Positions 22,479-22,973 are shown, numbered from the stretch's first letter. The stretch: DNA of 38,652 nt from a virus (IMGVR_UViG_2671180727_000010); one strand, 5' to 3'. A program made the numbers and translations. The notes: generated by a model not told the origin, from the sequence alone.

Positions 22479-22502
22479 AAGGCCACCAGCATTGGTGGCC
22501 TT
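22479..22502. repeat. Perfect hairpin AAGGCCACCA-gcat-TGGTGGCCTT
   Basis: 10-bp arms; a second copy with inverted loop (atgc) at 22950-22973; no clear U-tract. Confidence 0.5.
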
Positions 22503-22507
22503 AATCT

Positions 22508-22789
22508 TTAGTGGAGCAGACCGATGTCGATGGTATCCCCTGAATCATCCACACGGATCATCAGCATGGCAAAGGCGTTTAGTGGATAACTGGCGTGCCA
22601 TTCAGGGAAGCGGTCATCTCGCATGAAGTCGGCAATGTCGTAAACGCAGCCCTCAAAGTGGAAGAATCGCGTGCTTACCTGCTCGTCATAATCCACATGA
22701 TCCATTTCTTGCTGTTCTGTTTCCGGCAAGTCCAGCCATGATTCAAGGAATACATTTTGTGCTTTAGGGGTAATGGTGAAATCAGTCAT
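22508..22789 (-). CDS. Small strongly acidic protein (93 aa)
   Basis: Likely start MTDFTITPK (ATG at 22789, GAGGA 8 nt upstream); ~20 Asp/Glu versus ~5 Lys/Arg; own promoter and operator. Confidence 0.5.
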   Translation of the reverse strand: MTDFTITPKAQNVFLESWLDLPETEQQEMDHVDYDEQVSTRFFHFEGCVYDIADFMRDDRFPEWHASYPLNAFAMLMIRVDDSGDTIDIGLLH

Positions 22790-22949
22790 GAGCATATCCT
22801 CACTGCGTAAACATGTTGTTTTCTTGTTGGTGTAATTATCGCAGTGTAGATAAGGCATAAAAGAAGTTAATACAGGCTGAATACACAAGAAAGGTTCTGG
22901 AAGTTGATAGCCAGGTTTCAAACTAACCTTCGGTTATTAAAAGTCATTT

Positions 22950-22973
22950 AAGGCCACCAATGCTGGTGGCCTT
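22950..22973. repeat. Second copy of the AAGGCCACCA...TGGTGGCCTT hairpin (loop inverted)
   Basis: Reverse complement of the 22479-22502 hairpin including the loop; flanks are not inverted. Confidence 0.5.

What the first reader, a model, noticed from the sequence alone, without database searches (positions are those of the whole stretch)
22479..22973. Perfect 10-bp-arm hairpin present twice with inverted loop
AAGGCCACCA-gcat-TGGTGGCCTT (22479-22502) and its exact reverse complement including the loop (22950-22973) sit between small genes, yet the flanking bases keep the same orientation. Only the loop tells the two apart. Related GCCA...TGGC hairpins occur at ~24575 and ~36095. They lack U-tracts, so they are more likely RNA-stability elements, protein-binding palindromes or small mobile palindromic units than plain terminators.
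Basis: seen in the sequence. Interest (0 to 1): 0.35.

Follow-up and report, generated by a model that had tools for sequence, protein, structure and literature searches.

The report
Duplicated gene-end hairpin, loop flipped
Two copies of one RNA stem-loop end two small genes in an SSU5-like phage-plasmid of E. coli; they bracket a 471-bp gene cassette that relatives lack, and their opposite loops fit a known replication error (template switching), so this is a clear example of known processes rather than a new kind of element.

Summary
At 22477-22504 and 22948-22975 the same 12-bp-arm stem, TTAAGGCCACCA/TGGTGGCCTTAA, carries the loop gcat or atgc, with direct flanks; chance expects 0 copies.

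The window is a pLF82/Cyrano-like SSU5-type phage-plasmid. The local genes lie on the minus strand, and each hairpin starts 3 nt after a stop codon.

The hairpin is conserved in relatives whose neighbouring protein is 67-100% identical to the window's. Its stem covaries. Non-Watson-Crick pairs are G·U on the gene-sense strand (15 G·U, 3 mismatches) and mismatches on the other strand (2 G·U, 16 mismatches). This points to a sense-strand RNA 3' stem-loop with a weak U-tract. Published LF82 RNA-seq shows an 8-14-fold drop across the right copy.

Close relatives lack exactly 471 bp (one hairpin, gene g2 and its promoter) and keep one hairpin. This state occurs in three separate clades, and similarity to the window changes at the hairpin. 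That resembles the promoter/stem-loop (PeSL) shuffling described in T4-type phages.

Loop or whole-hairpin inversions recur at orthologous sites here and at other hairpins nearby, as expected from template switching.

The hairpin is not a dispersed or mobile repeat. Verdict: ordinary biology, nicely illustrated.

The parts
22477..22504 (-). hp1: the stem-loop ending gene g2. It has 12-bp arms; the sense-RNA loop is AUGC (gcat on the + strand). This is the ancient copy.
   Evidence: -20.1 kcal/mol. It starts 3 nt after the g2 stop codon. It is conserved with an ATGC-type loop downstream of g2 homologues in lineages whose g1 protein is 67-100% identical. Covariation is shown.
22948..22975 (-). 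hp2: the stem-loop ending gene g3 (CYRAN_109). Same stem as hp1; the sense-RNA loop is GCAU (atgc on the + strand).
   Evidence: It starts 3 nt after the g3 stop codon. Most relatives carry a G.U variant, TGGTGGTC in the sense orientation. Published RNA-seq of Cyrano shows an 8-14-fold drop from g3 to g2 across it.
22508..22789 (-). g2: the 93-aa cassette gene, of unknown function (PHROG 1845).
   Evidence: translation; phrog_1845, E 7.8e-59. A GAGGA ribosome-binding site lies 7 nt before the ATG at 22789. The gene is absent from the one-hairpin relatives.
22790..22947 (-). Promoter and leader of g2. Predicted -35 TTTATG at 22856-22861, -10 TAATTA at 22833-22838, operator-like palindrome AGAAAACAACATGTTT at 22809-22824, and Shine-Dalgarno site at 22797-22801.
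   Evidence: It is homologous to the g1, g6, g7 and g11 leaders (families D2-D5) and to the g2 promoter of L098. The promoter is inferred from consensus only.
22505..22975 (-). The 471-bp unit (g2, its promoter and one hairpin) that is present or absent among close relatives. The junction lies inside the hairpin, so the exact crossover point cannot be fixed.
   Evidence: relatives cover 86% of the query in two pieces; alignment; the anchors are 515 nt apart in two-hairpin genomes and 44 nt apart in one-hairpin genomes, a difference of 471.
22304..22476 (-). Spacer, promoter and leader of g1. Predicted -35 TTGACG at 22372-22377, -10 TAATTA at 22349-22354, and operator-like palindrome at 22324-22339.
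21821..22303 (-). g1: the 160-aa gene downstream of hp1 (PHROG 1641, CYRAN_111).
   Evidence: It served as the anchor for the 77 related loci.
22979..23122 (-). g3: a 47-aa gene (CYRAN_109) ending at hp2. In the one-hairpin relatives it occupies the slot that g2 holds in distant lineages.
   Evidence: It is listed as a gene expressed in lysogeny (a 'moron') in PMC9928086.
23125..23535 (-). g4 (PHROG 7971, CYRAN_108). The true start is probably the ATG near 23499. In distant lineages g4 is followed directly by g2.
   Evidence: (the profile matches residues 13-136).
23584..23608 (-). hpX: AAATGGCGCG-taaac-CGCGCCATTT, a canonical terminator-like hairpin with a U-rich tail. It is followed directly by an operator and the g4 promoter, and forms the other constant boundary of the shuffled block.
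   Evidence: It is present in almost all 77 loci and is never inverted there.

Best explanation
What it is. The window is part of an SSU5-type phage-plasmid, 99% identical over the queried 3.2 kb to E. coli LF82 pLF82 / phage Cyrano. The finding lies in its plastic region of small genes, all on the minus strand. Each gene or gene pair is a small transcription unit: a sigma-70-like promoter, an operator-like palindrome, the gene, then a stem-loop.

What the two hairpins do. They are two copies of one such stem-loop. hp1 (22477-22504) ends gene g2 and hp2 (22948-22975) ends gene g3. The hairpin acts in the minus-strand RNA as a 3'-end-forming element. It most likely works as a partial terminator or attenuator and also as a barrier to 3' exonucleases. 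Which of these two roles dominates is inferred, not shown.

Why there are two. Because the same stem-loop ends neighbouring units, it is also a stretch of homology at which units are gained, lost or swapped. The 471 bp between the copies (g2 plus its promoter plus one hairpin) is missing from close relatives, which keep one hairpin. In other lineages g2 and g3 occupy the same slot, between the end of g4 and the hairpin. This is the same logic as the promoter/stem-loop (PeSL) shuffling described for T4-type phages.

Why the loops differ. The opposite loops are a neutral scar. A perfect palindrome lets the DNA polymerase switch template and copy the loop, or the whole hairpin, in reverse complement. 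The RNA stem is unchanged by this. The mechanism is inferred from the sequence pattern and from the literature.
For: Identity of the window: 99% to Cyrano OV696614. Cyrano is pLF82 and is SSU5-like.

Position: both hairpins start 3 nt after the TAA of real minus-strand genes that match PHROG families. Each is followed by a promoter-like block.

Conservation and covariation: the hairpin sits downstream of g2 in lineages whose g1 protein is 67-100% identical. Across 35 distinct sequences, 87.4% of cells pair, 5 pairs change on both sides, and 0 of 500 shuffles reach the observed covariation score.

Strand: in the 7 core pairs, non-Watson-Crick cells are 15 G.U and 3 mismatches on the sense strand, against 2 G.U and 16 mismatches on the antisense strand. 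There is also a CCACCA/TGGTGG -> CCAUCA/UGGUGG -> CCAUCA/UGAUGG compensatory series.

Expression: in published LF82 RNA-seq, log2(5+FPKM) in LB is g4 2.7/2.3, g3 6.1/5.6, g2 3.1/2.3 and g1 5.1/4.0. In condition B6, g3 is 8.0 and g2 is 4.2.

Cassette boundary: the indel is exactly 471 bp and its junction lies inside the hairpin. The one-hairpin state occurs in three different clades, and the left-flank and right-flank trees disagree. For the GCAG group, identity to the window is about 99% left of the hairpin and 95% right of it. L010 has a different, 310-aa gene between two hairpin copies. g2 and g3 are swapped between ...TGGTGGTAAatATG and the hairpin.

Inversion:
- Single-site loops GCAG and CTGC are exact reverse complements.
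- A 25-nt whole-hairpin inversion, including asymmetric stem positions, separates L109/L119 from L113-type loci.
- Other hairpins in the window show inverted loops at orthologous sites: 20713 cta/tag and 21255 atga/tcat (4 versus 8 loci). 24576, 31200 and 36094 are flipped at the central base.

Literature: loop inversion by template switching (PMC8794818; PMC5941160). PeSL shuffling (PMC2839356; PMC4122927).
Against: - No 3'-end mapping exists for these hairpins.
- The U-tract is poor (UUAAAUGA), and some distant lineages have no U-rich tail at all. Efficient intrinsic termination in E. coli is therefore doubtful.
- The RNA-seq figures are gene-level FPKM at low counts, I did not verify whether they are strand-specific, and they come from Cyrano, not from this exact genome.
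- The excess of G.U on the sense strand could partly reflect C-to-T mutation bias on the non-template strand rather than selection.
- hp1 and hp2 lie 100-170 nt from the next promoter, so they are not one compact motif as in classical PeSLs.
- The hairpin sequence itself is repeated only twice. Only the promoter/operator block is multi-copy.
- The trees are confounded by recombination, so 'three independent losses' could instead be exchanges with one-hairpin donors.
- Template switching is inferred from the pattern. Recombination between the arms would leave the same footprint.
Confidence: 0.7

Rival explanations
1. Pure RNA-stability element. RNA polymerase reads through the hairpin, which has a poor U-tract. 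The stem-loop acts only as a barrier to 3' exonucleases after processing, protecting the upstream g3 or g2 message.
For: The U-tract is weak or absent in all lineages, while canonical U-tailed hairpins occur nearby in the same region (23584 and 24082). g3, the 144-nt gene just upstream of hp2, is 8-30 times more abundant than g4, the gene directly upstream of it with only a 2-nt gap. That fits a protected 3' fragment.
Against: The same RNA-seq shows little signal continuing into g2, which also fits termination. The data cannot separate the two. This rival differs from the best explanation only in how much termination occurs.
Confidence: 0.3
2. The inverted loop comes from recombination, not from a polymerase template switch. 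Either reciprocal exchange between the two 12-bp arms flipped the loop, or hp2 arrived with g3 from a donor in which the hairpin already had the other orientation.
For: The region is visibly mosaic, with breakpoints at the hairpin. In nearly all relatives hp2 carries the GCAT (sense) loop and hp1 the ATGC loop, so the difference is old and tied to the gene each hairpin follows.
Against: A 4-nt spacer is sterically very unfavourable for intramolecular exchange between arms. Inversions recur at several unrelated hairpins and at single-copy sites. That fits a replication error, the mechanism documented for such footprints.
Confidence: 0.2
3. Double-stranded DNA palindrome bound by a dimeric protein, such as an operator, partition site or replication site.
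For: It is a perfect 12-bp inverted repeat with a 4-bp spacer. The region does hold another over-represented palindrome at promoters.
Against: - Variants keep pairing only on the sense strand (G.U versus A.C), which a double-stranded site would not care about.
- Arm sequences change by compensatory pairs.
- The spacer can be inverted or lengthened to 6 nt.
- The position is fixed just after a stop codon, not at a promoter.
Confidence: 0.04
4. Mobile palindromic unit, or a single-strand recombination site (REP/MITE-like, integron attC-like, or the target of an HUH transposase) that actively moves cassettes.
For: Cassettes come and go precisely at the hairpin. In both cases where two hairpin copies bracket a cassette, the window and L010, the two loops are in opposite orientation.
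Against: - There are only two copies per ~108-kb genome, both at this locus.
- The hits elsewhere are single unrelated hairpins.
- No REP GTAG motif, attC R/L boxes or extrahelical bases are present in the perfect stem.
- No recombinase gene lies next to the locus in the annotated relatives.
- The cassette gene and its promoter are native to the family.
Confidence: 0.04

Closest known systems
PeSL (promoter-early stem-loop) regulatory cassettes of T4-type phages (Arbiol et al. 2010, PMC2839356; Comeau et al. 2014, PMC4122927)
   Same: - Intergenic terminator-like stem-loops and sigma-70-like promoters flank small genes of unknown function in a plastic region.
- An ORF flanked by two motifs in one genome is replaced by a single chimeric motif in a close relative.
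- The motifs serve as points of exchange between otherwise unrelated genes (searches compared).
   Different: - The host element is an SSU5-type siphovirus phage-plasmid, not a T4-type myovirus.
- hp1 and hp2 lie 100-170 nt from the next promoter rather than inside it.
- The hairpin sequence is repeated only twice, while the promoter/operator block is the multi-copy part.
- Neither mini-circles nor terminator activity have been tested here.
Phage 'morons' (a gene with its own promoter and terminator inserted between phage genes)
   Same: g2 has its own predicted promoter and a hairpin at its end, and is present or absent between neighbouring genes. The neighbour g3 (CYRAN_109) was called a moron from lysogen RNA-seq.
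   Different: The inserted unit shares its promoter type and its hairpin with the resident neighbouring genes, and belongs to the family's own gene pool. It is a reshuffled native gene rather than a foreign insertion.
Rho-independent (intrinsic) terminators of E. coli and its phages
   Same: A GC-rich stem-loop in the sense RNA directly after a stop codon, at -20.1 kcal/mol. In unrelated bacteria the same stem occurs as classic hairpins with an A-tract before and a T-tract after.
   Different: The U-tract is poor (UUAAAUGA), and it is not conserved as U-rich in distant lineages.
Template-switch (quasi-palindrome) mutations that invert hairpin loops (Ripley model; Monttinen and Loytynoja 2022, PMC8794818)
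   Same: The loop is replaced by its exact reverse complement with the stem and flanks unchanged. The loops are typically 4 nt. Occasionally the stem imperfections are inverted too.
   Different: Here the footprint separates two paralogous copies within one genome, and it recurs at several gene-end hairpins of one phage-plasmid family. The process itself was not observed.

Membership tests
Intrinsic (Rho-independent) terminator | A stable GC-rich stem-loop in the transcript, just downstream of a gene | tested here: met
   12-bp stem with 6 G-C pairs, -20.1 kcal/mol, z-score about -4.8, starting 3 nt after the TAA of g2 and of g3 on the minus strand.
Intrinsic (Rho-independent) terminator | A run of U (usually at least 4-6 in 8 nt) immediately 3' of the stem | tested here: not met
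   After the GC-rich core the sense tail is UUAAAUGA, with 3 U in 8 nt. Other lineages have AUCA, CUUA or UACC. The consensus scan flagged hp2 on the sense strand only because of a distal UUUU, and flagged hp1 only on the antisense strand.
Intrinsic (Rho-independent) terminator | RNA 3' ends, or loss of read-through, at the site | tested here: inconclusive
   Published gene-level RNA-seq of Cyrano shows an 8-14-fold drop from g3 to g2. There is no 3'-end mapping, and an exonuclease barrier would look the same.
PeSL-type shuffling cassette | A composite of a stem-loop and a sigma-70-like promoter in intergenic DNA, repeated through a plastic region | tested here: inconclusive
   The promoter/operator block is repeated: the palindrome occurs 11 times against 0.26 expected. 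At 23584 and 36094 it directly adjoins a hairpin. For hp1 and hp2, however, the promoter is 100-170 nt away, and the hairpin sequence is only two-copy.
PeSL-type shuffling cassette | Indels or replacements between close relatives are bounded by the motif, leaving one chimeric copy | tested here: met
   The indel is exactly 471 bp and a single hairpin is left. L010 holds an alternative 310-aa gene between hairpin copies. g2 and g3 are swapped up to the hairpin. Similarity to the window changes at the hairpin.
PeSL-type shuffling cassette | Mini-circles formed by exchange between flanking motifs; experimentally shown promoter and terminator activity | not testable with these tools
   Needs PCR with outward-facing primers and reporter assays.
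PeSL-type shuffling cassette | Found in T4-type phage hyperplastic regions | tested here: not met
   The host element is an SSU5-like phage-plasmid.
REP/BIME or MITE-like mobile palindromic unit | Many dispersed copies in one genome | tested here: not met
   Two copies in the window. Each full-length ~108-kb relative gave one stretch. The 46 hits in 596 Gb are single copies, 45 of them with unrelated loops and flanks.
Integron attC-like recombination site | An imperfect palindrome with R/L core sites (RYYYAAC / GTTRRRY) and extrahelical bases, with an integrase nearby | tested here: not met
   The stem is perfect, has no such core sites and has no bulges. No integrase is annotated in the surrounding 9-40 kb of Cyrano or PhiR41_1.
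Template-switch loop inversion | The loop equals the exact reverse complement, with stem and flanks unchanged | tested here: met
   gcat versus atgc with the direct flank GTCATT. GCAG versus CTGC at the single-hairpin site.
Template-switch loop inversion | Recurs at orthologous sites and can carry stem asymmetries with it | tested here: met
   20713 cta/tag and 21255 atga/tcat; L004 versus L006; a 25-nt inversion that turns G.U pairs into A.C in L109/L119.
Template-switch loop inversion | Arises during replication by polymerase strand switching | not testable with these tools
   The mechanism is taken from the literature. Exchange between the arms is not excluded.

The most novel reading that the evidence does not exclude
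The hairpin is not just passive homology. It is a structure-specific single-strand recombination site, by analogy with integron attC or HUH-enzyme targets, at which a phage-plasmid or host enzyme inserts and excises promoter-gene-hairpin cassettes. The opposite loop orientation seen in both known cases of duplicated hairpins (the window and L010) would then be a by-product of that reaction, or a requirement for the duplication to survive.
Probability: 0.04. Interest if true: 0.8.

Novelty: new member of a known kind. Interest (0 to 1): 0.3.

Why it matters
SSU5/pLF82/pHCM2/pMT1-type phage-plasmids are common in Enterobacteriaceae; this 800-bp region alone matches 446 plasmid records. They carry accessory genes, including antibiotic-resistance genes.

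This work shows that their region of small unknown genes is built from promoter-gene-hairpin units. It also shows that a shared gene-end hairpin is a hot spot where units are lost, gained or swapped. That gives a simple rule for reading their mosaicism and for finding newly acquired genes, such as the 310-aa insert in L010.

The locus is also a clean natural example of hairpin-loop inversion, useful as a marker of template switching. Finally, it warns that loop differences in alignments should not be counted as several independent substitutions.

None of this changes current understanding.

Tried and rejected
- Dispersed-repeat idea. Exact-pattern scans of viral contigs and of 185,579 genomes found the hairpin only at this locus of this family, apart from unrelated single hairpins. 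Rejected.
- Rfam, at E-value up to 1 over 20000-28500. Nothing at the hairpins. A sub-threshold Hrs1 match at 21217-21283 overlaps other hairpins and is probably chance.
- Pfam on the seven small proteins: no hits. PHROGs: all 'unknown function'. The cassette's role therefore stays unknown.
- A first attempt to scan the g2 protein used a wrong frame and start. It was corrected to 22508-22789.
- The sigma-70 consensus scan found fewer promoter-like sites than shuffles and none of the promoters proposed here. The promoters rest on alignment of the repeated leader blocks, not on that scan.
- Polarity of the 471-bp indel. Flank trees place the one-hairpin genomes in three clades, but the left and right trees disagree. 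I could not decide between repeated deletion and exchange with one-hairpin donors.
- An RNase III site was considered and set aside, because a 12-bp stem is too short (own knowledge).
- A role as a terminator for plus-strand transcripts was considered, because the plus-strand tails are slightly more U-rich. It is not favoured: there is no plus-strand gene upstream, and the G.U asymmetry points to the minus strand.

Full report
**1. The observation**

The sequence is as described. AAGGCCACCA-gcat-TGGTGGCCTT lies at 22479-22502 and AAGGCCACCA-atgc-TGGTGGCCTT at 22950-22973. No match occurred in 100 shuffles, even with three mismatches allowed.

The arms extend to 12 bp, TTAAGGCCACCA / TGGTGGCCTTAA (22477-22504 and 22948-22975). 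The flanks are direct: GTCATT on the left, and AAT..TTA on the right (family D12). Both versions fold as RNA at -20.1 kcal/mol on either strand.

**2. Context**

The window is 99% identical over the queried 3.2 kb to Escherichia phage Cyrano (OV696614), which is plasmid pLF82 of E. coli LF82. Cyrano is an SSU5-like phage-plasmid (PMC9928086). An 800-bp query around the finding matches 446 plasmid records from Escherichia, Enterobacter, Yersinia, Salmonella and Citrobacter.

The local genes are on the minus strand:
- g1, 21821-22303
- g2, 22508-22789
- g3, 22979-23122
- g4, 23125-23535
- further small genes beyond these

Six of the seven tested match PHROG families of unknown function; the 47-aa g3 matches none. 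None matches Pfam.

Each hairpin starts 3 nt after a TAA stop codon: hp1 after g2 and hp2 after g3. On the minus strand each hairpin is followed by a spacer and then a repeated block. For g1 the block reads -35 (TTGACG), 17 nt, TAATTA, CACCAACA, AGAAAACAAnTTGTT, Shine-Dalgarno site, ATG. For g2 it is the same with a weaker -35, TTTATG. These promoters are inferred from the alignment of repeated leaders. The simple consensus scan did not list them.

**3. It is an RNA element on the gene-sense strand**

I collected 77 loci that encode g1 homologues with 67-100% protein identity. A hairpin with the core GGCCACC...GGTGGCC lies downstream of g2 in nearly all loci that carry g2, and the sense-strand loop is almost always xATGCx.

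Thirty-five distinct versions were aligned:
- 87.4% of cells pair.
- Five pairs show changes on both sides.
- No shuffle out of 500 reaches the observed covariation score.
- Slid registers pair far less.

The imperfections are strand-specific. In the seven core pairs the sense strand has 15 G.U cells and 3 mismatches. The antisense strand has 2 G.U and 16 mismatches.

A stepwise series is also visible: CCACCA/TGGTGG, then CCATCA/TGGTGG (a U.G pair), then CCATCA/TGATGG.

This argues for function in the minus-strand transcript and against a double-stranded protein-binding site. One caveat: C-to-T bias on the non-template strand could add to the asymmetry.

**4. Terminator or stabiliser?**

After the GC-rich core the tail is UUAAAUGAC..., a weak U-tract. 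Distant lineages have tails that are not U-rich at all. Nearby hairpins in the same region have canonical U tails, for example 23584-23608 and 24082-24104.

The only expression data I found are gene-level RNA-seq values for Cyrano (S1 Table of PMC9928086):

| Condition | g4 | g3 | g2 | g1 |
|---|---|---|---|---|
| LB, log2(5+FPKM), two replicates | 2.7 / 2.3 | 6.1 / 5.6 | 3.1 / 2.3 | 5.1 / 4.0 |
| B6, log2(5+FPKM) | 3.0 / 3.1 | 8.0 / 8.2 | 4.2 / 4.1 | 7.2 / 7.4 |

Transcript abundance therefore falls 8-14-fold across hp2 and rises again at the g1 promoter. That fits a transcript boundary, but it cannot separate termination from exonuclease protection. g3 is also far more abundant than g4, the gene directly upstream of it with a 2-nt gap, which hints at a protected 3' fragment or an internal promoter.

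I therefore commit to a 3'-end-forming stem-loop: a partial terminator that also acts as a barrier to 3' exonucleases. The split between the two roles is unresolved.

**5. Why there are two copies**

CMS-2020a and PhiR41_1 lack exactly 471 bp, which is the start-to-start spacing of the two hairpins. They keep a single hairpin with the left flank of hp1 and the right flank of hp2.

Among the 17 viral-contig loci holding the exact hairpin (16 from this family) and the GenBank phage records, the states on the + strand are:
- Two-hairpin genomes always have the left loop GCAT and the right loop ATGC, once ACGC.
- One-hairpin genomes have ATGC, GCAG or CTGC.

The three one-hairpin types fall in three different clades among two-hairpin genomes. 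The trees built from the left and right flanks disagree. For the GCAG group, identity to the window is about 99% left of the hairpin and 95% right of it. The hairpin is therefore a recombination breakpoint.

Other arrangements occur (RNA-sense order; hpX is the AATGGCGCG hairpin at 23584-23608, P a promoter, O1 and O2 operator copies):
- L010 has a 310-aa AT-rich gene with its own promoter between two hairpin copies, with loops CTGC and GCAT.
- Distant lineages have hpX - operator - promoter - g4 - g2 - hp1 - promoter - g1.
- One-hairpin E. coli genomes have g3 in place of g2, swapped exactly between ...TGGTGGTAAatATG and the hairpin.
- L098 has hpX - O1 - P - O2 - g2 - hp1.
- The window has both g3 and g2, each with a hairpin.

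In short, this is a mosaic whose joints are the hairpins and the promoter/operator blocks.

The closest described system is the PeSL promoter/stem-loop cassette of T4-type phages. There, an ORF flanked by two motifs in RB49 is replaced by one chimeric motif in phi1 (PMC2839356; PMC4122927).

The differences here are:
- a different phage group;
- hp1 and hp2 lie 100-170 nt from the promoter;
- the hairpin is only two-copy;
- neither mini-circles nor activity have been tested.

**6. Why the loops are opposite**

Inversion is a recurrent mutation at hairpins of this family.
- At the single-hairpin site, GCAG and CTGC are exact reverse complements.
- In L109/L119 a 25-nt segment that includes asymmetric stem positions is the exact reverse complement of the L113-type hairpin, with direct flanks. 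This turns two G.U pairs into A.C.
- At other hairpins of the window, orthologous loops are inverted among relatives: 20713-20733 cta/tag (actat/atagt read as a 5-nt loop) and 21255-21276 atga/tcat (4 versus 8 loci). 21382-21402 is nearly inverted.
- The 3-nt loops at 24576, 31200 and 36094 differ by change of the central base to its complement.
- Two Klebsiella relatives differ in the same way: cta/tag and ttgt/acaa.

This footprint is described for polymerase template switching at palindromes. Loop-only inversions are typically 4 nt and sometimes longer (PMC8794818; PMC5941160).

Because hp1 and hp2 are perfect here, the flip costs nothing in RNA stability.

In both known duplications, the window and L010, the two loops are opposite. 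This may be survivorship: identical loops would make a longer perfect direct repeat that is deleted faster. That is conjecture.

**7. Not a mobile palindromic repeat**

Whole ~108-kb relatives gave one stretch each in the viral scan. The scan of 185,579 bacterial and archaeal genomes gave 46 single-copy hits. One, L050, is this family's own locus. The other 45 have different loops and flanks, many with the classic A-tract before and T-tract after. Rfam has nothing at the site.

**8. Verdict**

The finding combines three known things in a phage group where they had not been described together:
- a gene-end RNA hairpin;
- shuffling of small gene units at shared regulatory motifs;
- template-switch loop inversion.

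I rate it a new member of a known kind, with modest interest (0.3). The least ordinary reading still open is an active, structure-specific cassette recombination site, at about 4% probability.

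Noticed in passing
window 13183, 13208, 22324, 22809, 23559, 24462, 24946, 26142, 27755, 27806, 36081 (13 nt each): The palindrome AAACAAnTTGTTT occurs 11 times with up to 1 mismatch, against 0.26 expected. It sits just downstream of the predicted -10 of the small minus-strand genes, and in some cases also just upstream of the -35. It looks like the operator of a dimeric repressor that controls a regulon of small genes. No regulator was identified.
   Followed up: partly
window 1-98 and 38517-38614: A perfect 98-nt inverted repeat lies at the two ends of the window (I1). Homology to relatives runs only from 98 to 38523. The end sequence matches an IS3-family element found in more than 2600 plasmids. 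The window is therefore bounded by two inverted IS copies: either a contig break at a repeat, or a 38-kb IS-flanked segment.
   Followed up: partly
window 20713-20733, 21255-21276, 21382-21402, 24576-24594, 31200-31220, 36094-36114: Other GC-rich intergenic hairpins show inverted loops at orthologous sites in close relatives (cta/tag; atga/tcat; aat/att; att/aat; agt/act). The hairpin at 23584-23608 is never inverted in about 70 loci.
   Followed up: partly
window 22979-23122 (g3 = CYRAN_109): In published LF82 RNA-seq this 47-aa gene is 8-30 times more abundant than g4, the gene directly upstream of it with a 2-nt gap, and than g2 downstream. This suggests an internal promoter in g4 or a stable 3' fragment protected by hp2.
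   Followed up: no
L010 571-1503 (same contig as L120): A 310-aa AT-rich gene with its own promoter/leader is inserted between two copies of the hairpin in one relative. It is a candidate for a recently acquired accessory gene. Its function was not examined.
   Followed up: no
window 23125-23140 (end of g4) compared with the 3' arm of the hairpin: On the sense strand g4 ends ...GCCTGGTGGTAAAT, which resembles the hairpin's 3' arm plus tail, TGGTGGCCTTAAAT. The alternative genes g2 and g3 are swapped exactly between these two points. This may be microhomology or coincidence.
   Followed up: no
window 22416-22479 and 26032-26098: Short tandem-like direct repeats of about 28-31 nt (GGT(T/A)GCCTG...AGAGGT(T/G)GGT) lie in the spacers between a hairpin and the next promoter (family D6). 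Their role is unknown.
   Followed up: no
window 21217-21283 (minus strand): A sub-threshold Rfam match to the Hrs1 sRNA (32 bits against a gathering score of 56.4; E = 0.0036) overlaps the paired hairpins at 21210-21276 between convergent genes. It is probably just terminator-like structure.
   Followed up: no
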